Assembly: GCA_038087875.1 (NCBI GenBank)
Contig: CM075988.1
Coordinates: 25,422,001 to 25,486,000, forward strand
DNA length: 64,000 nt
Reading direction: 5' to 3'
From: Malacoraja senta
Lineage: Eukaryota
The notes under the pieces are model-generated. The model had not been told where the DNA came from. It ran no database searches and was given only the letters and a program-made list of their open reading frames with translations. Made by a program: the position numbers and the translations under genes. Below are positions 8,706-50,400 of this stretch, piece by piece. Each line of letters opens with the position of its first letter. The first letter of the stretch is position 1.

Positions 8706-8873
8706 AACAGAGAATGCGAGGCCAGTCATAGAATCAGAGACAGTGAGACACACTCAGAGAATGAGACTGCCGTCCCACGACAGGGTGCGAGCAGGGTTTG
8801 TAACGCATGTCAGCATCAAAGAAGTAGGGTTTGGCGAGTCACTGCCCACAACACAGCGACCCTCTCCCATGCC

Positions 8874-8906
8874 GTGCCGGCCAAAGATCCTATAGCAAGT
8901 GCCGGC
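8874..8906. mobile_element. probable excision footprint of the same MITE family
   Basis: GTGCCGGC + CAAAGATCCTATAGCAA (17 nt, 16/17 identical to the TIR start) + GTGCCGGC. Confidence 0.75.
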
Positions 8907-9274
8907 CTGGCTCCGACAGTGGCCGTGGGATGGTGTCTGCCACACACAGCCCCGGGGAAGCACAAGTCCTGTGCCCGAGTTCAAACACAATGGTAAACAC
9001 CGAGAATAAACTTTTAAATGGTGAAGTTCAAAGCCGTAGGAAGGTGGGGGGTTGGGGGTTGGGAGGGGGGGTTGGGGGGGTGGATAGTTTGAATTATTAA
9101 ATTCCATTTTCTTTTTCAAGAAATGAAAACTTTTTGCTGCACTCGAGTACTACAAATGCCTCTACACTGAGACAGGTCTGAATAAGTTCACCAGACAGGC
9201 CTTGGCCATGGTAGGAGGTGCTAGCATGCACTGCATCAGGCCAGTGGGCTCCACACAGCTCACTGTAAAGGTCA

Positions 9275-9551
9275 TTTAAGAAAGAACTGCAGATGCTGGA
9301 AAATCGAAGGTAGACAAAAGTGCTGGAGAAACTCAGCGGGTGCAGCAGCATCTATGGAGCGAAGGAAACAGGCAACGTTTCGGGCCGAAACCCTGAAGGA
9401 AACAGGCAACGTTTCGGGCCGAAACCCTGAAGGAAATAGGCAACGTTTCGGGCCGAAACCCGGAAGGGTTTCGGGCCGAAACGTTGCCTATTTCCTTCGC
9501 TCCATAGATGCTGCTGCACCCGCTGAGTTTCTCCAGCACTTTTGTCTACCT
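9275..9551. mobile_element. PLE-derived fold-back element with internal tandem expansion
   Basis: Inverted arms; TSD TCACTGTAA(A/C)GGTCA (9260-9274 / 9552-9566). Confidence 0.85.
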
Positions 9552-10676
9552 TCACTGTAACGGTCAAACAGGAAGTACAAACACATGCGGTTACTGACAG
9601 TCACAGCCTGGGTCGCCACCACCACCACACACACAGTCCCCACCGTTAATGATTAGCATGAAGACAGCACAGGGCACAGGAAACTAGACACAAAATGCTG
9701 GAGTAACTCAGCGGGGACAGGCAGGCAGCATCTCTGGAGAGAAGGAATGGGTGACGTTTCGTGTCGAGACCCTTCTTCAGACCGACAGTCAGTGGAGACA
9801 GAGGGAGACGAGAGATATGGCTGCAGGTACAGGGAAGAAGGAGAGAGAGAGAGAAAGAAAAAAAATAAGGCAGGGGGGGATTCATTATTTTCAAGGAAAA
9901 TTCCAGGAATGAAGTTTTTAAAACTTTAAAATTCAAACTGAGCCTTCGGTGTGTGCAAATCAAAAATACTCTTCCAGGCAAAAAATACTGTTGCAACCAT
10001 GGCTCTGTTTCTATGCTGTGTATCTAAAGTTGAAAAATGAAAAGTGTTTTATCATTGGGGGGGGGGGATTTAGAATTATGAATGCAAGGCGAGTAGGATT
10101 GAATTATGGTACTGGCTTAGGATAGGCTTAAGGGGCTGAATGGCCTGAAGCTGGATTTCTGGATAGAGAGGATGTGGAGAGGATGTTACCGCTAGTGGGA
10201 GCGTCCAGGGCCAGAGCGCACAGCTCAATAATATAAAAGGACATACCTTTAGAAAGGAAATCAGGAGGAATTTCTTTAGCTAGTGGGTGGTGAATCTGTG
10301 GAAGTTATTGCCCCAGATAGCTGTGGAGGCCAAGACAATGGATATTTTTAAGGTGGAATTTGATAGGCTCTTGAATAGCATGGGTGTCAGGGGTTATGTG
10401 GAGAAGGCAGAAGAATGGGGTTAGGAGGGAGAGATAGATCAGTCATGATTGAATGGCGAAGTAGACTTGATGGGCCGAATGGCCTAATTCTGCTCCTTTC
10501 ATACATAGATACATAGAAAATGGGTGCAGGAGTTGGCCATTTGTCCCTTCGAGCCAGCGCCGCCATTCAATGTGATCATGGCTGATCATCCCCAATCAGT
10601 ACCCCGTTCCTGCCTTCTCCCCATATCCCTTGATTTCGCTAGCCCCAAGAGCTCTATCTAACTCTCTCTTAAATAC

Positions 10677-18525: not shown

Positions 18526-19917
18526 TAACTCCAGCATTTTGTGTCCGTCTCCAGGGAAATAAACCGCCTGGGTCCCATGTTTCCAATTACAGAATTTCAC
18601 ACAAATTTTAGAAGCTTTCAAATTTAATTGTTAAAGATCTAAAGTGCAAAAGCATTCTAAAGAAATGTTGCAAGTGTACAGACGGTGGTATTTATCCGTC
18701 AGACGTGCAGCGTTCCACCTGTAGTCTGGAGGTTAGCGTGACGTTCAAGTACAGCTGAGCTCGTTCAGACTCTGCGGCTCACTATTCACTTCCAGCAACC
18801 GCTATCTTGTGGTTAGAGAATGGAAAATGTCAATAATCAATGACAAAGCTCAACTCACTAGCTTATTATTTACAGCCAAAGAAACGGATTCACTCGAGCA
18901 TGTCCTTGAACCAAGGCTATGTTTCTTGGCCACGGACACCACACCGAGGCCAGCCTTGTCCCCAGAGCCTGCATACCATGGAGAGGCCGGTGCAAGGAGG
19001 CAGTCTATGGGCGGGTGTGGAGGGGGGCGGGGGGCCCCAAAGACTTGCTTCACTGCAGGTTCTTTGCAAGGTGGGTACCTGGGACGAGTCTGGTGGTCTG
19101 GTGCCAGGGTGGAGAACATGGACAGTGTAGTCCTGCGGAGGCAAGGCCGGAGGGGGGGGGGGGGGGAGAGGTGGCAGAAGCTGGGGGTCCCACAGCTTCA
19201 AGCTTGGAGATTGGCCAGGCAGAGGATGAGAAACGAAGGCGTCTAACACAGGGCTACCAACAGCCCACTTAGACCATTGAATCTGCAGGAAGGAACCACA
19301 GATGCTGGTTCATATCAGAGGTAGACACAAAATGCTGGAAAAACTCAGCGGGACAGGCAGCATCTCTGGGGTAAAGGACCAATCCATGTTCTCAAATTTT
19401 CAATTGTCCAGAGTCTCAGCTTTCTGGGAGTGTGTTCAAGAACTCCCATTTTGTTTTAATAACACTGCTTGCCATTAGTCCTGGACCTCCTGTCCACCCA
19501 CCTTCTCAAATCTTTTAATCATAGTCATAGTGCTGAAACAGGCCCTTCAGCCCAACTTGCCCACACTAATCAACATGTCCCATCTACACTAGTCTACCTG
19601 CTTGCGTTTGACCCATATCCCTCTAAACCCGTCTTATCCATGTACCTGTCTAAATGTTTCTTAATAATTGTGATAGTCCCAGCCTCAACTACCTCCTCCA
19701 GCAGCTCATTCCATACACCCACCACCCTTTGTGTGAAAAAAGTTACCCCTCAGGTTCCCATTAAATCTTTCTCCCTTCACCTTAAACCTTTGTCCTCTGG
19801 TTCTCGATTCCCCAACTTTGGGCATTAGAGACTGATCATCTACCCGATCTATTCCTCTCATGATTTTGTACACCTCTGTAAAATCACTCATCATCCTCCT
19901 GTGCTCCAAGGAATAGT

Positions 19918-20222
19918 TCAAGAAGGAACTGCAGATGCTGGAAAATCAAAGGTAGACAAAATTGCTGGAGAAACTCAGCGGGTGCGGCAGCATCTATGGA
20001 GCGAAGGAAATAGGCAACGTTTCGGGCTGAAACCCTTCTTCCAGCGAAGGAAATAGGCAACGTTTTGGGCTGAAACTCTTCTTCCTGCGAAGGAAATAGG
20101 CAACGTTTCGAGCCGAAACCCTTCTTCCAGGCGAAGAAGGGTTCCGGCCCAAAACGTTGCCTATTTCCTTCGCTCCATAGATGCTGCCGCACCCGCTGAG
20201 TTTCTCCAGCAATTTTGCCTAC
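19918..20222. mobile_element. PLE-derived fold-back element with three internal ~42-bp repeats
   Basis: TSD CTCCAAGGAATAGT (19904-19917 / 20223-20236); inserted in a minus-strand CR1. Confidence 0.85.
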
Positions 20223-20808
20223 CTCCAAGGAATAGTGTCCCAGCTTGCGCAACCTCATCTTTTAGATGAATTAGATTGCTGGTAATCTTCTGAACTCAAG
20301 GGAACAAAAGTCTTCGAAGTGCAAACATGTTCTTGCAATGTCGGGGTTCAGCCCCAGCGTGACTCAGGAGTTGGACAGCGTGAGACATGGGCGGTCCAGT
20401 CACATTACCCCAACTGGATGATGCCAGTCAGATGGAACAGAAACGATGAGAACAGGCCATCCTTCATCAGCAGAAAATATCAATAAGAAAACAGGAAGAA
20501 GAAATAAGAATGAGAACCAGCATGAGAACCAGAATGAGAATATCACTGTGACTTGTCACTAGAGACAATAAACTACCATTCATTCAGCAAGATGCAGCTA
20601 AACACACGGAGAAATAAGGCCGGCCGCCGGTGGGTTAGATTGCTTCCCAACCCCGCACCACCACTTCAAAACATCCCATATTATCAAATATTTGCCCTCA
20701 ACTCTACTTGTCTGCCCTGATCTTAATAAACTTTCACTTCCCCCTCTCTCTCACCCCACTTGAATATATAACGAGTAAGCGTTCGCAGACCCAGATATAG
20801 GATCATAA

Positions 20809-24708: not shown

Positions 24709-25451
24709 TAACCCACTGGGTTTGGCAATCGAATGGATTTGGTAACTAATTCATGGTGACTGAGTCTCGTACCTTCATCGAGTTTTGAACCTTTGAGTTT
24801 GGCTTCTTTTCCAATGGAAACAAAGATTAGAAGTGACAGGCGTTTGGTATTCTGGCTTCCCCGACACATAGCTTGGGGGGGGGGGGGGGGGCGGGGGGGG
24901 GAAGAGGAGGAAAACCAAAGTGATTGATCATGATCTTTGAAACCCGCTCGCCTGCAGCTCTCGGCTGATCTTCCCCCACATCGGATTCAAGGTCCTGGAT
25001 TCAACATTCAGCGGTGAACGCACTCCCACGTCACAGCTGAATCAATGCTCTCCCCGGCAGGGTCACCGTTAATGAGAAGCAGATGCAAGGCAATGCCTTG
25101 GGCACCTGCAGTGGTCCCATGTGTGGGTGAGAATGATCGCGGCACAAACAGGCCACAGGCACAACGCACACATGTCATAGTGAGGAAGCTGCAGAGAACC
25201 ACAGGGTCAATGAGTTGAGCCGAGGGAACACACAGGCAAACTTGCTGTTTTATCATTTAAAATTCACCTTTCATAGAAACATAGAACATAGAAAAATAGA
25301 AAATAGGTGCAGGAGTAGGCCATTCGGCCCTTCGAGCCATCACCGCCGTCCAATATGATCATGGCTGATCATCCAAAATCAGTACCCCGTTCCTGCTTTT
25401 TCTCCATATCCCTTGATTCCGTTAGCCCTAAGAGCTAAATCTAACTCTCTT

Positions 25452-26618
25452 AAGAGATTAGTATGCAAACTTAAAGCACACGGTATTGGGGGTTCAGTAT
25501 TGATGTTGATAGAGAACTGGCTGGCAGACAGGAAGCAAAGAGTAGGAGTAAACGGGTCCTTTTCAGAATGGGAGGCAGTGACTAGTGGGGTACCGCAAGG
25601 CTCAGTGCTGGGACCCCAGCTATTTACAATATATATTAATGATCTGGATGAGGGAATTGAATGCAACATCTCCAAGTTTGCGGATGACACGAAGCTGGGG
25701 GGCAGTGTTAGCTGTGAGGAGGATGCTAGGAGGCTTCAAGGTGACTTGGATAGGTTGGGTGAGTGGGCAAATGCATGGCAGATGCAGTATAATGTGGATA
25801 AATGTGAGGTTATCCACTTTGGTGGCAAAAACAGGAAAGTAGACTATTATCTGAATGGTGGCTGATTAGGAAAAGGGGAGATGCAACGAGATGCAATGGG
25901 TGTCATGGTACACCAGTCATTGAAAGTAGGCATGCAGGTGCAGCAGGCAGTGAAGAAAGCAAATGGTATGTTAGCATTCATAGCAAAAGGATTTGAGTAT
26001 AGGAGCAGGGAGGTTCTATTGCAGTTGTACAGGGTCTTGGTGAGACCACACCTGGAGTATTGCGTACAGTTTTGGTCTCCTAATCTGAGGAAAGACATTC
26101 TTGCCATAGAGGGAGTACAGAGAAGGTTCACCGGACTGATTCCTGGGATGGCTGGACTTTCATATGAAGAAAGACTGGATAGACTCGGCTTGTACACGCT
26201 AGAATTTAGAAGATTGAGGGGGGATCGTATAGAAACTTACAAAATTCTTAAGGGGTTGGACAGGCTAGATGCAGGAAGATTATTCCCGATGTTGGGGAAG
26301 TCCAGAACTAGGGGTCACAGTTTAAGGATAAGAGGGAAGTCTTTTAGGACCGAGATGAGGAAATCATTTTTTACACAGAGAGTGGTGAATCTGTGGAATT
26401 CTCTGCCACAGAAGGTAGTTGAGGCCAGTTCATTGGCTATATTTAAGAGGGAGTTAGATGTGGCCCTTGTGGCTAAAGGAATCAGGGGGTATGGAGAGAA
26501 GGCAGGGATGGGATACTGAGTTGGATGATCAGCCATGATCATATTGAATGGCGGTGCAGGCTCGAAGGGCCGAATGGCCTACTCCTGCACCTATTTTCTA
26601 TGTTTCTATGTTTCTATG
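25452..26618 (+). mobile_element. 5'-truncated young CR1-like LINE (RT C-terminal half) nested in an antisense CR1
   Basis: [31 protein letters not shown] and VVNLWNSLP motifs; one in-frame stop at 25863-25865; (TTTCTATG)n tail. Confidence 0.95.
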
Positions 26619-34500: not shown

Positions 34501-34737
34501 TTGTTTCAGAAAGAACTGCAGGTGCTGGAAAAATCAAAGGTAGACAAAAACGTTGGAGAAACTCAGCGGGTGAGCAGCATCTATGGAGCGAAGGAATAGG
34601 TGATGTTTCGGGTTGAGACCCTTCTTCACACTGGTAATTCAGTCTGAAGATGGGTCTCGACCCGAAATGTCACCTATTCCTTTGCTCCATAGATGCTGCT
34701 CACCCGCTGAGTTTCTCCAGCGTTTTTGTCCACCTTA
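34501..34737. mobile_element. PLE-derived fold-back element with hammerhead-like motifs on both strands
   Basis: TSD TGTTATATGGAGAG (34487-34500 / 34738-34751); CTGAAGATGGGTCTCGACCCGAAATGTC at about 34644-34671. Confidence 0.85.
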
Positions 34738-37700
34738 TGTTATATGGAGAGGTTGGGCAAACTGATTTTACTCCTTGCAGCGTTAGAAAGTGAGGGGTGT
34801 TCTTAGATATACATGAAATCATGAAAGGGGTAGGAGTATTGCAGTCTTTTTAACATTGTAGATGAAATCTCAAATTGGAGGACAGACGTTTAAGGTGGTG
34901 GGGTGGGGGAAGATTTAATAGTACCTGTGGGGCAACTTTGTATGTGGAGCAAGCTGGCAGAGGAGGCAAACATAATAACATTTACAAGAAGTACATGGAC
35001 AAGAAGGTTTTAGAGGGATATGGACCAAACTACAGCAGCTTATTGTTGCCGTAAGATAACCTCAGACTCCGGTGATTTTTGTGTGTTCACCACAGTTCTC
35101 CTCAAGGCTGAACTAAAAGAACAATTGTTCCTTTATGCCACTTCCTCAGGGTGATGGGGTTTGACATTTGATCTGCTAGTTGATTTTCCCCATTAACTCA
35201 GCGGTGAATCAGAGAGGGAGTTGTTGTGCTCACTGGCCATGTGTTGTCAGCAACTGTCAAGCCACAGAGACTGCTCTATGTGTGGCAGCTTGCCGAGTTG
35301 GGCACAGCTAACCCAGAGTGGCTCCAAACTCTCAATCACCAAAGCCTGGACAAGGCAGAAGCTAAGGGCACGCACTCGCGACAGAGCAGGGAAATTGAGA
35401 ACCAGAGGGCTTAGGTTTAAGTTGAGGTGGGAAAGATTTTCTAGGAACCAGAGGGGTAACTTTTTATTTTTTATTTAATTTTTTAACATAAGTATGGAAC
35501 GAGCTTCCGGAAGAGGTAGGTACTATCGTAACATTTAAGAAACATTTGGATAGGTACATGGATAGGATAGGCTTCGAGGGGTATGGGCCAAACTCAGGCA
35601 GGTGGGACATGTTGGTCGGTGTGGGCAAGTGTGATGAAGGGCCTGTTTCCACGCTGTATGACTCCATAACTGGATATAAGGCATTGTGTTCATGCAACTG
35701 ACTCTTTTCTGGCAATCTCTGCGTCTGGGGATATGATTCATTCATACCAGTCAGTTGGAACAAGCAAGGTCTTTGATTGTAAGGGGAGATCAAGGTGAGT
35801 GGGGGAGGCGCATACATTGCCATTGTCATTCCCCAATGGTGAACCTTACATGGTGGTTACATTGGAAATATTTTTTGAACTTGGCCACACAGGGTTTCTG
35901 AGCACAGATTTTCTTTTACTCCAACCATTAGTTTCCACCTCAACTCAAATGTTTGAGGGGGAAAACAGAGGCAGTTTTCCAACTGGTGACATTGGATGGT
36001 GACATTGGGTAAAATACATCCAATCTGCAATGGTCACAAAGTGGACGCTGACAGGTAACGTTCCACAATACAAGGGTCTGGAACTTTGGGATTGTGGTGA
36101 CATGAAGGTTTCATCATCTTGTCTAAGGTTCATGAATCCTCAGTCTTCTCCACCCTGAATGGGTCTTCATTGGCAATATCTCAGATGGAGATGTAGATGT
36201 AGACGAGATCAGAAAGGAAGGCAAACTTGGAATAGAATGGCAGTGGTGATCTCATTTCAATAGCAGAGCAAATTCCAATGGTAACAATCCCAACTCCAGC
36301 TTCTTAGGTTCTTAACTCTATTTTCTTTTTATAAACAGACACATAAGAACTGTTTTTCTGTGTGCGCATTGCAAGCAAATGATTTTTTAAAAAAGGCTAT
36401 ATATGATGCTGGACCTAGTCACAAGGGAGTGAATGGTGAAAACAGCGCAGCAATAATTATGTTACGGTTTGAGGCAGCCCTGGGCAGTTCCTGACCTAAT
36501 TACAAACACTTTCATCCCCGCAGCCCAAGTGTGGATCAGTTTGCATGTCATTCGGAGCAGTTTAATAGATTATATATTTTTAGCAAGTCATTAATTCGTG
36601 CTGGGCCTATGAAAGGTAGTTAGACTCTCTGCAGGGGCCAGAGCCACCAAGTCCCAATGGGTTCATAAAACAAAGCACCAGTTGTATTTTTGGGAAGAAA
36701 CACATTGGACAAATCTTGCATCCAAGTTTCTCACTAAAGTCCATAGCACGCACTGATACCATCTCCCCGCTCCGCAACGTGCCTAATCCGTCTGAAGAAG
36801 GGTCTCCACCTGAAATGTCCACCAGTCTGAAGGGTCTCCACCCGAAACGTCACCCATTCCTTCTCTCCAGAGATGCTGCCTGTCCCGCTGAGTTACTCCA
36901 GCATTTTGTGTCCATCTTCGATTTAAACCAGCATCTGCAGTTCTTTCCTGCATCTAATCTAGAGTTGTTTCAGCAATAATGGAGAGGCCATTCAGATGAT
37001 GTGGGGAAGGACAGACTAATAATGCTGCAGGTGACTCACCCCGTGGTCTGACACAAACAAAGTATATATAATTGGATAGCACAATGTTTCAACTCAAAGA
37101 CGACTCTGCACCCACTTTGGTCTCACTTTCCCCAGAAACTTGTAGTTTTATTCTTGTTTATTCTCTTGTTATTCTTTTCACAGTTGTTTCAAATGTGTCC
37201 TCTCCGACACTCTGGCCAGCGAAATGGTTTCTCCTGTTTGTCTGCAAACATCGGTTGGGGTTTGGAGAACTTCTCTCAAATCCCTTCTCAACCTTCTCCA
37301 GCATAAATAGGGTTTGACGAGGAAACACTTTTTCTCACAGAGAGTGGTGAGTCTAGTGGAATTCCCTGCCTCAGAGGGCGGTGGAGGCAGGTTCATAGAT
37401 ACATAGAAAATAGGTGCAGGAGTAGGCCATTCGGCCCTTCGAGCCTGCACCGCCATTCAATATGATCATGGCTGATCATCCAACTCAGTATCCCGTACCT
37501 GCCTTCTCTCCATACCCCCTGGATGCTTTCAAGAGAGAGCTAGATAGGGCTCTTAAAGATAGCGGAGTCAGGGGATATGGGGAGAAGGCAAGAACAGGGT
37601 ACTGATTGTGGATGATCAGCCATGATCACATTGAATGGGGGTGCTGGCTCGAAGGGCCGAATGGCCTACTCCTGCACCTATTGTCTATTGACATGTACTG

Positions 37701-38035
37701 TTGGCGGGCTCAACCCAACTCTTCAGCGTTGAGAAGCACTGAGTGTGCAGATCTGGGTCCCAATGTGTAGCCACTAAGTCAGGTGAGAGGGGAGGACACG
37801 GCAGACTTGCCAACATCTCTCACACCTGGAAATCTGACTTACACCTCCCATCAATCAGCTGCAAGGCATTGAGCGAGTGTGGAATGAAACTTTGTACCGC
37901 TCACTTAGTAACCATAGAAACTGAAAGGCCATTAGGCCCTGTTGGAAAACTAACCACCAGCCTTTTCTCTTTAACTTACTTCCTGGCACTCTAACCTCTC
38001 ACTAAACGCACCATTCTTTTTTTTTAATTTAAAAT

Positions 38036-38770
38036 GAATGACGGTGGAATTGATTGTAGACTTTAGGAGAGCTCCCCCCCCCCCCTCCCCCACCCCCCCA
38101 CTCACTATCAACAACACCACAGTCACATCTGTGGAGTCATTTAAGTTCCTTGGAACCATCATCTCCAGGGAGCTTAAATGGGGGGAGGCCACCATCGACT
38201 CCACAGTCAAAAAGGCCCAACAGAGGATGTACTTCCTGCGGCAGCTGAGGAAACACAACCTGCCACAGGCCATGATGGTCCAGTTTTATACTGCCATCAT
38301 AGATTCTGTCCTCACCTTCTCCATCATGGTCTGCTTTGGCTCAGCCACCAAGCACGACATCCGGAGGCTGCAGCGCATCTTTCGATCAGCCGAGAAGGTT
38401 GTTGGCTGCAACCTTCCCCCCATTGATGAACTGTACACTGCAAGGGCCAGGAAGCGAGTGGGTAAGATCATGTCTGACCTCTCTCATCCTGGCCAACAAA
38501 CTCTTTGAAACACTTCCCTCTGGAAGGCGACTCCGGACTGTCAAAGCTGCCACAGATAGACAAAAAAACAAGCAGCAGCTCTACTCAACAGCTAAAAGTC
38601 TGTAGCCTCCTTTCGCTCTGGTATTTTATTTCATTCTTCACATGTTAAAATTATAATGTTTTACTTTTAATTGTCTACTGTATATCGTGTTGTTACTTGC
38701 GAGCAAAGCACCAAGGGCAAATTCCTTGCATGTATACATACTTGGCTAATAACATGTACTCAATTCAATA
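38036..38770 (+). mobile_element. Rex1/Babar-type LINE fragment
   Basis: TVELIVDFRR, VESFKFLG, KKAQQRMYFLRQLRK and FYTAIIDSVLT motifs. Confidence 0.9.
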
Positions 38771-40257
38771 TTGCTATTGAAGGCGAGAGGTGCAAGGATG
38801 AAGGGAGATGTGTGGGGCAGGTTTTGTACCCACAGACTGGAACCTGCTGCCAGGGGTGGTGGTGGGGGAGGCAGATACGGTCATGACATTTCACAGCCCT
38901 TGATATACGCACGTGGATACGCAGGAACGGAGCACGTGCGGACAGAGATTAGTTTAATTTGGCATGAGTTTTGGCACGGACATTGTGGGCCAGTGCCTGT
39001 GCCTGTTCCAAGTCTACAGTTACCAGCAAAATAAACATCGATGATAAACATCACACACGTCCTTTAAAAGCCGGAATCCTGACTACACTCCCAAACTCAA
39101 GATCCCAAGAGACGATCGCGGTGGCGCAGCGGTAGAGTCGCTGCCTTACAGCGCTCGCAGCGCCGGTGAACCGGGTTCGATCCCGACTGCGGGTGCTGTC
39201 TGTACGGAGTTTGCACCTTCCCCCCGTGACTGCGTGTGTTTTCTCCGTGATCTTCCACACTCCAAAGACGTACAGGTTTGTAGGTTAATTGGCTTGGTGT
39301 AAGTTAGTCTGTGTCTCCAGTTACCGGAAAGACAATACATGATAACAATCCAGCCTTTCACTGGGTACGGATACATAAGTCGATTTATAAAGGGGAATAT
39401 GAAGATGTTACAATGAAGTCCTGTCATCCCGTTAATCCACCATCGACCTTGACAGCTTCTGAGCTTCCTGCAGGCATGAATGACTCAGCACAGAGGAATC
39501 CACCAGGTCTTTGTGCCAATCCCCACAGTCCACATGAACCACATCCCTCCAGCTTGTGGCCAGAATCTCACACACTCATTTGTCAGCTACATGTTCACTC
39601 ACCGCTCAAACTTCAACTTACACCTCATTGTTACACAATAGCCACCTTCCATACTGTCCAATTCACACAATTCTGAAGCTTCAGGTTAATAGTTTTTCCC
39701 TCTCCACCGCATCATAATCTCGGATAATATTTAACACTGTATGTCATGTTGTTACTTGTGGGTGGAGCACCAAGGTAAATTCCTTGTATGTGAATACTTG
39801 GCCAATAAACTTACTTACTTAACTATCCTACACACCACTACGGACAATTTTCACGTTTACCAAACCAATTAACCTATAAACCTGCATGTCTGGAGTGCGG
39901 GAGGAAACCAATTATTTCATAATTAATTCATTTTGGTAATAAAAGAGGCCATGTGGCCCATCAAATTTAAGCTAGACCTTCTATCAATCCTAGTCATTTT
40001 CCCCCAGCCTGATTATTTCCCCTCCCCCCCCCCCCCCCCCCCCCCAACCACACATCATTGGATATGCGAGAAAAACCCGAGTGCCTGGAGAAACACTGGG
40101 AGAATGGTGACCTCCATACAGATACGCAGCAGAGGCTTGGAATCGAACCTGGGACACTGGGGCTGTGGCAACGTTGCTATACCCGAAACCCCACTGTATC
40201 CCCCCCCCCCCATTTGCTTCAACAACAATGGACCTCTGTTCATTGTTCTTACAAAAA

Positions 40258-40632
40258 ACGTACAAAATTCTTAAGGGGTTGGACAGGCTAGATACAGGAA
40301 GATTGTTCCCGATGTTGGGGAAGTCCAGAACAAGGGGTCACAATTTAAGGATAAAGGGGAAATCATTTAGGACTGAGATGAGAAAAAAAAATTTCACACA
40401 GAGAGCGGTGAATCTCTGGAATTCTCTGCTACAGAATGTAGTTGAGGCCAGTTCATTGGCTATATTTAAGAGGGAGTTAGATGTGGCCCTTGTGGCTAAA
40501 GGGATCAGGGGGTATGGAGATAAGGCAGGTACAGGATACCGAGTTGGATGATCAGCCATGATCATATTGAATGGCGGTGCAGGCTCGAAGGGCCGAATGG
40601 CCTACTCCTGCACCTATTTTCTATGTTTCTAT
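40258..40632 (+). mobile_element. young CR1 3' fragment
   Basis: TYKILKGLDRLD...GDKAGTGY and CR1 tail. Confidence 0.92.
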
Positions 40633-45270: not shown

Positions 45271-46883
45271 TTACTTTCCCCCTATTTATGTCAGCACCTC
45301 TGCTCAACGTGAAATGGAACCGATATTTCCCAGAAGTGGTTCACAGGTAAATGATCCCAGCTCACTATCACATGGCCACCTGCAGCCTGGTACTTGGAGC
45401 AAAAGACTCTTAGTTCACTACATTTCCTCATTTTCAGACACTTCACCCTCCTGTACACCTCAAGCTTAACTTCAGCGCACTTTAGAAATTCCTGGCAGTA
45501 ACATTACATACCTGGACTCTGAGCAGAATCAACAATTAAGGAATTTATCCGACAGCGGGTTTGCTGAATTATATGGAACTAAAACACAAATGGCAAAGCC
45601 AAAAAATGCAGTCCAACCAACCCACGTTAGTGATTGACACAAAACCCTGGAGCAACTCAGCGGGTCAGGCAGCATCTCTGGAGAAATGGAATATGTGACG
45701 TTTCGGGTCAGAACCCTTCTTCCAACCCAAAACGCTACCCGTTCCTTCTCTCCAGTGATGCTGCCTGTCCCGCTGAATTCCTCCAGCATTTTGTGTCTAT
45801 ATTCGGTGTAAACCAGCATCTGCAGTTCCTTCCTACACTGTCCACGTCAGTGTTTATACTTTACCTGGATAAAGTCTTGATGCCATTTAACCATCCACCT
45901 CCTGCATCACTTTCACTTAACTCTTTGTGGGGTTGGTGAAAACGTTAATCCCTTGCGTACAGCAGCAAATTGACATAGATTAAACTCCACTGTTGTAAAT
46001 TAACAATTGTACTTATTAGTTATGTAAACGACAGAAGTTGTTGAGGCTGGAGGAAGAGGAGAATGAATACTTGTACGTGGCCAAAAGTGCCAGGGCAATG
46101 GCACAGCTGGTAGAGCCACCACTGCCTCACCGCGCCAGAGACCCGGGTTCAAACCTAACCTCTGGTGTGTCTGTGTAGACTTTGTACATTCCCCCTGTGA
46201 CCATGTGGGTTTCCTACGGGTGCTCTGGTTTCCCCCCCACATCCTAAAGATGGGCCTGTTTGTAGCTTAAAATGGCTTCTGGTAAACGTGGGCCCAGCAT
46301 GTCGGGGACAGATGAGAAAGTGAGATAAAATTAAGCTAGGGTGAACAGGTGATCGCTGATGGCATGGACATGGTGGCGGATGTGGACATGGTGGGCACAA
46401 GGGTCCGTTTCCATGCTGTGCATCTAAACTGAAGCCACTTGGCCCAGGAGAGTTTTAACCTTCCTCTGGAAACGTGGCCTAGATGAAACCATTTTAAAAC
46501 TGGACATCAAAGACGGACTCGCCCTAATTCAGGAGTGAGATGAAAGGAGGTGCCAGTGGTGATGGTGGCTTCTCCAGTCAGAATACAGGGCAGGCAATGA
46601 ATGCTCGACACAAGGCGAGACACCCAGGCAACTACAACAGCTTCTGAAGCCACCAGAATGACACACACCCATAACCTGCTGCTCCAAGAGCCATCTCCAA
46701 ACAACACAACATTGTCCCTAGGATCCATTAATCAACTGCACCTTTATCCCCATTCAATTACCATTTGTTTTTAAACTCGCAAAAATATGAAAAACACTTT
46801 GTTTTAAAATTACATCCCATTCATTTCTCCTTTGCCAACTGCTGACTCCTTCACACCTCGAGGCTCCATGACAAGCACAGAAC

Positions 46884-47467
46884 CAAAGATCCTATAGCGA
46901 GCAAGATAGTCCACTCGACGAAAAAGACGTAGTACGGTCATGGGCAGATTCATGGGTCATTTTCGGCCACTTTTCCGTAACCGGCTTCCGTCTCCGCACC
47001 AAAGATCCCGTAGCGGAGCAAAGATAACTAGTGCAGAGACGGAAGCCGGTTACGGAAAATCCTCGTAAAAATTAAAGATCTTTGGTAAAAATCTTCTCCT
47101 CATTTTCCTTCTGCCTCTCTATAAAAAGCAAAAAGATGCCTATGCTCCTTCCACGGCGTGTGGGAAGTCTGGCCCGGATCAGCACGGCTGGGACACCAGG
47201 GTAAAGTTGCGGGGAGGTTTGCAATGTATTTTTAACAGAATTGTAATTTATTAACATATTAATAGTGACAGAATTATGAACTATGAATCTAACACTATAA
47301 TCACACACACACACACACACAAACTGTTCCCCTGATTACACTGCGAGAGGGATATACAAAGTCGGGTCGGGTTACAGAAATGGCCCACGTTCCACTCCGG
47401 TGTGTACTACACGTCAGCCCATTGGATTTAACAGGAGTGGACCATCTTGCTCGCTATAGGATCTTTG
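46884..47467. mobile_element. non-autonomous DNA transposon (MITE), 33-bp TIR, 8-bp TSD; P or hAT superfamily
   Basis: TIR CAAAGATCCTATAGCGAGCAAGAT(A/G)GTCCACTC at 46884-46916 and 47435-47467 (one mismatch); perfect TSD CACAGAAC (46876-46883 / 47468-47475). Confidence 0.9.
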
Positions 47468-50400
47468 CACAGAACTAGGTCACGCTCACCTCAACATACA
47501 GGCTACCCAACATTTACAATCACCTCTCGTGAATATTTGGCAGGTTTTCCTACATGAAAGACACTATTGTACAGGCAGGTCATCGTAATTTGCACGCTGG
47601 CCTGAATGGGTTAATGGAAACAGTATGTTAGGCCTCATCAAGCTAAATACTCCTGCCCCAATCTATCCACTTACTCTCAGAATAAATAGCTCAGGACCAA
47701 CCTTCTGAATTTCTAGCACAAAGGTCAAATCGATTTGGGTCTTTAAAATGAAAGACGACCCTCCTCCTCTACAGTGAAATGATGGCTTTTGATTTTGTAG
47801 CAAATGGTTAAACACAAACTGTTGTAGGAGCCAGAGACAAGATTCCACGTGCTGGCATGAACAGGCTGACAACAACACAAGGCAATAGTGTTCACTGCTC
47901 TCAAGTTAGCGACTGGCATATGCTGCGATACGGTCATAAAGGAAGCCCTTTAACAATAAGGAGTAAGCCATTTAGAACGGAGACGAGGAAACACTTTTTC
48001 TCACAGAGAGTGGTGAGTCTGTGGAATTCTCTGCCTCAGAGGGTGGTGGAGGCAGGTTCTCTGGATGCTTTCAAGAGAGAGCTGGATAGGGCTCTTAAAA
48101 ATAGCGGAGTCAGGGGAGATGGGGAGAAGGCAGGAATGGGGTACTGATTGGGGATGATCAGCCATGAATGGCGGTGCTGGCTCGAAGGGCCAAATGGCCT
48201 ACTCCTGCATCTGTTGTCTATAACGCTTCTACTACCTTAGGAGATTGAGAAGATTCAGTACGTTGACAAATATGTCATAAAGGATAGTAGAATTAGGCCA
48301 TTCAGCCCATCAAGTCTACTCCGCCATTCAATCATAGCTGATCTATCTCTCCCCATTCTCCTGCCTTCTTGCCATAATCCCACACGCTCGTACTAATCAA
48401 GTATTGTCTTGAACTTCTACAGGTGTACACAGCAGAGAGCCCACGGCCTGGTTCAGCAACTTGAACGCCCAGGAATGTAGGAAAATACAAAAAGCGCTGA
48501 ATACTGCCCACTTTATCACAGGCAATGATTTTTTTAAACTTATTTATTGAACTTTCCTTTTGTTTAATGTACAAGTGAGAATTTTATTATTCCACTCCAG
48601 GCCATAGGACAATAAAACACTCTTGCCACTTGACATTCAAGGCTGCACACCAATATGTAGCAGGCCTGGGTAGCTCGACAGCTCCCTCCACAACTGATCC
48701 ATCACTCATCACACTGAAGATAGACACAAAATGCTGGAGTAACTCAGCGGGACAGGCAGCATCTCTGGAGGGAAGGAATGGGTGATGTTTCGGGTCGAGA
48801 CCCTTCTTCAGGCTGATGTCAGGGGGAGATGGAGATGCATAGGTAAGGAGGTGTGAGGTGTGAAAACCAGGACAAAGTTCTCCACTGCAAAAACGTATCA
48901 CCCCGTCTGCATCTCCAAATGCCTGGTCATTTGTACCACTGGCGTTTGTCTGATTGTGTCAAATACAAACTGCTGCTGCAATCCTGTGCCTTCAAACAAT
49001 GACTGCCCTTCAGAAGCCCATCATTAGTTATGAATGTCTGTATAGCAATTTGCCGAGTGTTTATCTGCCCTCCGCCCCCCCCCCCCCCCCAACAGAATGG
49101 GACAATTCAAAAACAGACACACAAAATTGTCCTCTGTTCAGCAGACTCAATGTGTGTTAAAAAAAAAGATTAACACTGGTACTGACTTTCGGTTAGGTTA
49201 GATACAGCGCAGAAACAGGCCCTTCGGCCCACCGAGTCCGCACCAACCAGCGATCACCCCTTACACTAGTTCTATCCTACACACCAAGGGACAATTTACA
49301 AAAGACAATTAAACTACAAACCTGCATGCCTTTGGGATGTGGGAGGAGACCGGAGCACCCGGAGGAAACCCACACAGTCACAGGGAGAACATGCAAACTC
49401 CGTGCAGACAGCACCCGTAGTCAGGATCGAACCTGGGTCTCTACCGCTGCGCCACTGTGCCTCTCCTCAAGTTTTTTCCTTTAACTTTGACTAATTGAAA
49501 TTCAACCATGACAAGTATTTGCAATAAAAGATATCAATAAAAGATAGCAAATTTCACACAACCCCTGCACTCCCTCCCCCACCCTAAAACCTTTCCGGGT
49601 ACCCATGCTAATACCTGTAATCGTGTATTTTTTAAGTACCTCTATACTCCGCCCCCCAATTCATCTCTGCAACTTAAGACTCCTGGGGAGGCAGGGGATG
49701 TCTGGGTTTCTCAGCACGAACATACAGCAGCTATTGTAAGGTTTTATATGGAGGTGGGAAGCCAGTGTACACTGTTCCATGTTCAGGCTCATGTCCGTCA
49801 GTGCTGCAGGCACAGTGTTGCCGCCAGAGTTACACGGCCACTGGGGAGAGGAATGGATGGAGGATTCTCATACACAATGCAAACAGGATGCACAGCTGAA
49901 CACCACTCAATGGCTTGCAAGGAAGTCGGCTCGGCCACATTTATCCTGAACTAGCAAGATAGGTGGGTGGGGGAAATAAACAGAGAGTATATGTTTTAAA
50001 TAACAGATTTCCACCAGAAAAAAAAATCCACACAAACTAAAACCAGCCTCTCGTGACTGGATCGGCCGAGTACATAGGTAGTCCAGAACAGGAACAGGCC
50101 CTTCGGCCCACAACACCCATGCTGAACATGGTGCCAAATAAAAACTAATCTCTTGGAGTCATAGAATGACAGAGTGTGGAAACAGGCCCCTCAGCCCAAC
50201 TTTCCCACACTTGCCAACATGTCCCAGCTACACTAGTCCCACCTGCCTGCGCTTGGTCCATATCCCTCCAAACCCGTCCTATCCATGTACCTGTCTAACT
50301 GTTTCTTAAACGTTGGGATAGTCCCAGCCTCAACTACCTCCTCTGGCAGCTCGTTCCATACACCCACCACCCTCTTCTGCCTGCAAGTATTTTTTTTTTT

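What the first reader, a model, noticed from the sequence alone, without database searches (positions are those of the whole stretch)
8874..8906. 8-bp duplication enclosing exactly 17 nt of a transposon TIR: candidate P-element-type excision footprint
Seen: GTGCCGGC-CAAAGATCCTATAGCAA-GTGCCGGC. The 17-mer matches the first 17 nt of the TIR at 46884, differing only by a CpG-type G>A change. Established: Drosophila P transposase cuts one strand 17 nt inside the TIR and leaves such TIR remnants between 8-bp TSDs, whereas hAT excision goes through flanking-DNA hairpins and normally leaves no TIR. Inference: a P-superfamily (THAP9-like) transposase with the same 17-nt stagger was active in this lineage's germ line.
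Basis: partly seen in the sequence, partly recalled or inferred. Interest (0 to 1): 0.75.

Follow-up and report, generated by a model that had tools for sequence, protein, structure and literature searches.

The report
Excision scar of P-like transposon
This 33-base motif is almost certainly the scar left when a very common jumping-gene family cut itself out, and similar scars elsewhere suggest it cuts deep inside its own ends like the fruit-fly P element, although the responsible enzyme was not found.

Summary
The motif is real and far beyond chance: an exact 8-bp duplication round 17 nt matching the end of a 584-bp non-coding element at 46884-47467 (33-bp TIRs, 8-bp TSD). Contigs of four public runs show a very high-copy family in three organisms and three more short end-to-end remnants at other loci, keeping 15-17 nt per end, one with a visible 8-bp duplication. 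A decayed 12-nt palindromic remnant lies inside the element. A shared subterminal motif sits 12 bp further in at one end, like P's 9/21-bp spacers. So: excision scar about 0.9; P-type long stagger about 0.7. TIR start and target motif fit hAT equally. The scan noted P-like scars before in another genome (e1-7810740).

The parts
8874..8881 (+). left copy of 8-bp target-site duplication
   Evidence: identical to 8899-8906; starts GT like the family's flank consensus (table 7)
8882..8898 (+). 17-nt remnant of one TIR (15 exact + AA)
   Evidence: 16/17 to the TIRs at 46884 and 47467; chance test
8899..8906 (+). right copy of 8-bp target-site duplication; its first G could also be base 18 of the remnant
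   Evidence: same AAG reading in other remnants
46876..46883 (+). left TSD of the full non-autonomous element
   Evidence: identical to 47468-47475
46884..47467 (.). 584-bp non-autonomous TIR element (MITE), member of the donor family
   Evidence: 33-nt TIRs 97% complementary (I1); no Pfam hit in 4 of its frames or in frame 47075-47335; very deep cover in 4 of 4 runs
46884..46916 (+). left TIR, 33 nt
   Evidence: I1
46929..46936 (+). subterminal motif, positions 46-53 from the left end; candidate transposase (THAP) site
   Evidence: 7-mer shared with the right end at offset 12; 8-mer with the base most copies carry at 47403; function inferred
46971..47059 (.). 29-nt inverted arms round a 31-nt TIR-like piece; absent from another subfamily
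   Evidence: I2; joints 46998/46999 to 47166 in X2, X20, X21
47065..47092 (+). second, older remnant inside the element: 8-bp direct repeat round a 12-nt palindrome equal to both TIR ends joined at GATC (11/12)
   Evidence: most copies differ at 47073 and 47078, so family-wide and decayed; weaker than 8874
47350..47357 (+). 8-bp target that, in another copy of the element (X20 contig), is duplicated round a 32-nt two-ended remnant (17+15)
   Evidence: table 5c row 47357 to 47349; register checked
47403..47410 (-). subterminal motif, positions 58-65 from the right end
   Evidence: table 3 row 47403
47435..47467 (-). right TIR, 33 nt
   Evidence: I1
47468..47475 (+). right TSD of the full element

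Best explanation
A member of this TIR family inserted at 8874, making the 8-bp duplication (shown as sequence; the event is inferred). It was later excised in the germ line by a P-superfamily (THAP9-like) transposase that cuts one strand at the element's end and the other about 15-18 nt inside it, so each flank keeps a long 3' single-stranded TIR overhang (inferred from Drosophila P). End joining then trimmed and joined the overhangs: at 8874 one was kept whole and the other lost; at other loci both were largely kept (15+16, 17+15, 17+filler+15); at 47073 they annealed at GATC to give a 12-nt palindrome. The scars are inert by-products. The recurring AA(G) ending most simply comes from a sibling TIR variant lacking 4-5 nt (inferred; not seen in a full element).
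For: Exact TSD and TIR match beyond chance. Of 5 listed joins that link the left part of the element to the right part (tables 5 and 5c), 3 keep 15-17 nt of each end, 2 keep long parts (95+109, 175+34), and none keeps 18-33 nt on both sides when read against the window's TIR; uniform breakpoints give about 2e-11, and a geometric-tract null with a 15-nt detection floor gives 4e-4 for mean 10 nt. One remnant shows its 8-bp duplication. The 12-nt product is the length predicted by GATC annealing. Drosophila P cuts 17 nt inside its TIR (PMC7776569, passages) and its junctions include microhomology joins, one-sided joins with filler and, by my count, 25 of 63 with at least 14 nt of both ends (PMC5466332 section 9). 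hAT cuts through flank hairpins (PMC5499845, passages) and 128 Ds excisions gave flank deletions or palindromes (PMC5873905, passages). TIR length 33 is near the 27-32 bp of insect P elements (PMC3698922, passages). Shared subterminal motif at offset 12 against P's 9/21 spacers: shuffle P 0.015 for the 7-mer, analytic 0.005 for the 8-mer.
Against: No transposase or THAP hit in 380 frames of the window, no autonomous element found anywhere. Only 3 extra short remnants, each 1 contig per run, all from organism E; flanks of 2 were not printed; 7 joints of table 5 and 2 rows of 5c were not shown, and 2 joints were dropped in X2. Remnants under about 15 nt are probably undetectable, and with very short repair tracts (mean 3 nt) the clustering is unremarkable (P 0.12). 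One remnant (46900 to 47453) can be parsed as 20 nt of the commoner TIR with one mismatch, and the L011 palindrome as 18-20. No 17+0 join among 63 Drosophila junctions. Target consensus GT....AC fits hobo and Hermes as well as P and 1360. A second shared 6-mer lies at offset 11 in the opposite direction, so the motif test is partly post hoc. Zebrafish THAP9 gave larger flank deletions in S2 cells (PMC10983969 section 6).
Confidence: 0.7

Rival explanations
1. The family is hAT. Excision left flank hairpins; repair began copying the element back from the sister chromatid or another copy and aborted after 15-20 nt, then joined the ends.
For: 8-bp TSD and GT....AC target fit hobo and Hermes. Longer internal-deletion derivatives exist in the family. 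A detection floor could fake a cluster if tracts are very short. The TIR start also fits the hAT terminal consensus (recalled; PMC2820524 gives the same five-letter consensus to P, so it does not separate them).
Against: Both TSD copies are intact at 8874, 47065 and in the X20 remnant, with no flank palindromes, unlike Ds footprints. No listed joins at 18-33 nt. 33-bp TIR and a single offset motif look more like P.
Confidence: 0.17
2. An unclassified or other 8-bp-TSD superfamily with its own long staggered cut made the scars, so the mechanism is P-like but the enzyme is not.
For: No transposase seen; TIR string absent from the paper library (2 unrelated papers listed) and from the scan's index.
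Against: In what I read only P is described with a long stagger; end layout resembles P.
Confidence: 0.07
3. Not excision: post-insertion deletion of the element's interior and one end by replication slippage or repair of an unrelated break, or a templated insertion of TIR sequence at a break.
For: 8874 keeps only one end; a 1-nt microhomology (G) is possible at its right junction; high-copy repeats often donate fillers (general knowledge).
Against: The deletion ends exactly at the TSD and the insert starts exactly at TIR base 1; other loci keep both ends at similar lengths.
Confidence: 0.06

Closest known systems
Drosophila melanogaster P element excision footprints (17-nt staggered cut, PMC7776569; P{wa} junctions, PMC5466332)
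   Same: 8-bp TSD; TIR about 31-33 bp; TIR remnants up to about 17 nt between intact TSDs; microhomology and filler joins; two end motifs offset by 12 bp
   Different: Unrelated TIR sequence; natural fixed scars in a vertebrate, not lab events; 17+0 join not among 63 fly junctions; stagger here only bracketed at 15-20 nt; transposase unseen
Vertebrate P-like elements: zebrafish Pdre2/zfTHAP9 (PMC10983969) and medaka Izanagi (PMC2820524)
   Same: 8-bp TSD, TIRs starting CA, non-autonomous copies; Izanagi TIR 27 bp
   Different: Pdre2 TIR is 13 bp with distant subterminal repeats; both are low copy (at least 50; 13-28) while this family is far more abundant; Izanagi keeps a THAP relic, this element shows none; no cut position reported in the parts I read
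P-MITEs of Anopheles gambiae (PMC1562414) and BuT5 (PMC3698922)
   Same: Short non-coding TIR elements with 8-bp (8-9 for BuT5) TSD moved by a P transposase
   Different: There the autonomous partner is known; here it is not
hAT elements (Ac/Ds, hobo, Hermes)
   Same: 8-bp TSD, GT....AC-type target
   Different: Flank-hairpin cleavage leaves flank deletions and palindromes, not TIR remnants

Membership tests
P superfamily | 7-8 bp target-site duplication | tested here: met
   8 bp at 46876/47468, 8874/8899, 47065/47085 and in the X20 remnant; 8-nt register in flank consensus of 5 left-end read sets
P superfamily | TIR of about 27-33 bp starting CA | tested here: met
   33 nt, 97%; insect P TIRs 27-32 bp. 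Not exclusive to P; Pdre2 has 13 bp
P superfamily | Transposase with THAP, GTP-binding insertion and RNase H domains in an autonomous copy | not testable with these tools
   No genome held; no such hit in the window; TIR patterns gave no element in viral, metagenome or prokaryote collections
P superfamily | Long staggered donor cleavage leaving TIR remnants up to 17 nt | tested here: inconclusive
   Remnants of 15-17 nt at 4 loci plus a 12-nt palindrome favour it; small n, detection floor, 18-20 nt parses possible
P superfamily | Internal transposase sites at unequal spacing (9 and 21 bp) from the TIRs | tested here: inconclusive
   Shared 7/8-mer at offset 12, P 0.015 to 0.005; binding not testable; a second 6-mer has the opposite offset
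P superfamily | 11-12 bp subterminal inverted repeats | tested here: inconclusive
   Several short inverted pairs inside the element (I4-I6), none clearly above chance; not tested further
P superfamily | 14-bp palindromic target motif, ANAGT-type 5' half | tested here: inconclusive
   Flank consensus reads CA then GT in 5 of 5 left sets, first base A in 1 of 5 (overall agreement 0.34-0.38); hobo also has a 14-bp motif
hAT superfamily | 8-bp TSD with GT....AC-type preference | tested here: met
hAT superfamily | Footprints with flank deletions or P-nucleotides and no element DNA | tested here: not met
   The scars seen keep intact TSDs and element ends; but my scan looked only for TIR-containing scars, so hAT-type scars were not searched
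hAT superfamily | hAT transposase in an autonomous copy | not testable with these tools
   No autonomous copy available

The most novel reading that the evidence does not exclude
A cartilaginous-fish P-superfamily family reached tens of thousands of copies and left a genome-wide record of germ-line excisions showing that the 17-nt stagger and the 12-bp end asymmetry of the fly P element are conserved in a vertebrate family with unrelated TIRs; a near-identical TIR palindrome in an unrelated animal-like contig (L011) would then point to horizontal spread.
Probability: 0.35. Interest if true: 0.72.

Novelty: new member of a known kind. Interest (0 to 1): 0.5.

Why it matters
In the papers I read the 17-nt staggered cut is described only for the Drosophila enzyme; the cut position of vertebrate P-like transposases was not given in the parts seen (figures S6-S7 of PMC10983969 are pictures and may bear on this). 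Fixed scars let the cut depth of an extinct or uncloned transposase be read from a genome, and can classify orphan 8-bp-TSD MITEs that TIR and TSD alone cannot assign to P or hAT. They also record germ-line end-joining products in a lineage with little genetics. The single scar has no evident function.

Tried and rejected
Own genome: not held, so no genome-wide histogram. TIR patterns of 24-25 nt: 0 hits in viral, prokaryote and metagenome collections. Patterns of 18-19 nt: 0 and 5 viral, 9 metagenome, 3 prokaryote loci; 16 of these 17 show no inverted partner or further similarity and are taken as chance; L011 has a 33-nt TIR-like palindrome but no clean TSD and is not counted as support. Pfam on 376 stop-to-stop frames of 62 aa or more (low-complexity frames dropped) plus 4 shorter element frames: only LINE-type hits; exons under 62 aa would be missed. 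Rfam: 0. Paper search for three TIR strings: 2 unrelated papers listed; THAP9 + P element + shark + transposon: 1 review listed, not read; seen as listings only. Scan index by sequence and place: nothing. Runs holding 8740-9500: X19 0.94, X20 0.56, the other 22 rows 0.20-0.23, which the repeat at 9275-9553 probably explains; none was laid on this locus, so these shares are no evidence. Reads were laid on the element, so the allele state at 8874 is untested. Zero cover of the element's left flank in X19 and X20 is not read as a finding. Loose TSD matches with 1-2 mismatches (e.g. 13463, 21489, 55201) rejected as chance. TIR start and target motif rejected as P-versus-hAT tests. Two other 'TIR+TSD' hits (25363-26534, 37470-40557) have a palindromic 8-mer and enclose LINE pieces; rejected as inverted LINE ends.

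Full report
Observation. The motif is as described: 8874-8881 equals 8899-8906 and the 17 nt between them match the first 17 nt of the TIRs at 46884 and 47467 at 16 positions. In 150 simulated windows the 17-mer never appeared with at most one mismatch, and a looser footprint pattern appeared once, against two distinct sites in the real window. The flanks up to 9274 are unique in the window.

Setting. No genome is held. The window is repeat-rich; Pfam on 380 frames gave only LINE-type hits at 25359-25862 and 38038-38505 and a few sub-threshold matches, and Rfam gave none. From its repeat content I take it for a skate or ray; this is recall and comes from no call. The donor-family element spans 46884-47467, with 33-nt TIRs at 97% and an 8-bp TSD, and shows no coding relic.

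A second scar in the window. Inside the element, 47065-47092 is an 8-bp direct repeat round a 12-nt palindrome that equals both TIR ends joined at GATC, 11 of 12. Twelve is the length expected if two identical overhangs anneal there. Most copies differ at 47073 and 47078 and are further from the TIR, so this scar is old and family-wide, and it is weaker evidence than 8874.

The family elsewhere. Contigs of four runs from three organisms were laid on 46700-47650. All four cover the element very deeply (summed depth up to about 9e5 in X20 against 15-74 for single listed contigs; the tool warns this is no copy number, so 'order 1e4 copies' is rough). One X21 contig bridges the right junction with about 5% differences, so this insertion predates that split; its left-junction contig has 28 letters on the element side, under the tool's bar of 31. 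Many copies carry an extra G after TIR position 16. Consensus flanks of five left-end read sets (58-111 reads each) put GT exactly 8 nt before the element, preceded by CA, which confirms the 8-bp register.

More remnants. Five listed joins link the left part to the right part. Three are short: 46898 to 47452 (15+16 nt; X19 and X20), 46900 to 47453 (17 + 12 filler + 15; X20), and a 32-nt insert (17+15) between a duplicated 47350-47357 in another copy of the element (X20; register). Two are long (95+109, 175+34). The first two do not continue into this locus's flanks, so they are taken as other loci; their own flanks were not printed. 15 of 22 joints and 12 of 14 filler rows were shown, and 2 joints were dropped in X2. 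Uniform breakpoints make three such joins very unlikely (about 2e-11); a geometric tract model with a 15-nt floor gives 4e-4 at mean 10 nt but 0.12 at mean 3 nt.

Against 'exactly 17'. The nested remnant's left end finishes in AA like 8882-8898, and the right end of the filler remnant can be read as the same 17-mer; in all three the next base is G. So AA is probably not a private CpG change. A sibling TIR lacking 4-5 nt would explain it and would make the retained length 17-18 with no mutation; 15 nt plus added bases is the other reading. The filler remnant can also be read as 20 nt of the commoner TIR with one mismatch. The stagger is thus bracketed at 15-20 nt, with 17-18 the simplest value.

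End layout. A 7-mer lies at positions 46-52 from the left end and 58-64 from the right; with the base most copies carry at 47403 it is an 8-mer. The offset of 12 equals the difference of P's 9- and 21-bp spacers (PMC7776569, passages). Shuffle P is 0.015 for the 7-mer and the analytic value 0.005 for the 8-mer, but a 6-mer with offset 11 the other way also exists, so this is suggestive only.

Comparison with known systems. P cuts 17 nt inside its TIR (PMC7776569: passages and section 9). The 63 junctions of PMC5466332 (passages and section 9; rad51 background) include microhomology joins, two left-only joins with filler and, by my count, 25 with at least 14 nt of both ends, but no 17+0. hAT uses flank hairpins (PMC5499845, passages) and Ds leaves flank deletions or palindromes (PMC5873905, passages). 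Target motifs do not separate P from hobo or Hermes (PMC3276498 and PMC2577343, passages). Vertebrate P-like elements are known in zebrafish (PMC10983969: first part, section 6, passages, supplement text) and medaka (PMC2820524, passages); zebrafish THAP9 gave larger flank deletions in fly cells, and its junction figures were not visible to me. P-MITEs: PMC1562414 and PMC3698922 (passages). Searches for this TIR or a P family in sharks and skates found nothing relevant in the held library; Repbase and Dfam were not available, so the family may already be catalogued.

Verdict. Excision scar of this family: about 0.9. Made by a P-type long-stagger enzyme: about 0.7. Exactly the Drosophila 17 nt: about 0.4. 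It works like a P footprint; membership of the P superfamily is not established because the defining transposase could not be tested. New member of a known kind; interest 0.5.

Noticed in passing
L011 2942-3006: A metagenome contig with an Ig-domain exon-like frame (Pfam Ig_3 E 3e-4, below cut-off) carries a 33-nt palindrome whose left arm matches the commoner TIR variant over 18-20 nt and right arm at 14 of 15. No clean TSD; the arms extend 3 nt outward, and the neighbouring 8-mer, present two times plus one near copy, equals positions 11-18 of the 8882 reading. Could be a relative in another animal or one of the 9 chance hits.
   Followed up: partly
window 46971-47059: A TIR-like 31-mer sits between 29-nt inverted copies of its flank; another subfamily lacks this block in three runs. 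May record a fold-back repair or aberrant transposition fixed in the family founder.
   Followed up: partly
window 47108-47235: Low depth and loose ends at 47107 show that most copies lack this segment; the window copy belongs to a longer, rarer subfamily.
   Followed up: partly
window 47405-47425 (minus strand): CCAAT and TGACGT words lie next to the end with the longer spacer; possibly the old promoter end (inference).
   Followed up: no
window 9275-9553 and many copies (e.g. 702-974, 19917-20227, 34504-34736): Abundant fold-back repeat with long inverted arms and a short internal tandem unit; resembles Penelope-type hammerhead repeats by recall only; Rfam found nothing at gathering score.
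   Followed up: no
   Followed up: no
window 25359-26519, 38038-38505: LINE fragments: RVT_1 hit (E 4e-15) and ALKBH8_N hit (E 1e-15), the latter probably a retroelement C-terminal piece (interpretation recalled).
   Followed up: no
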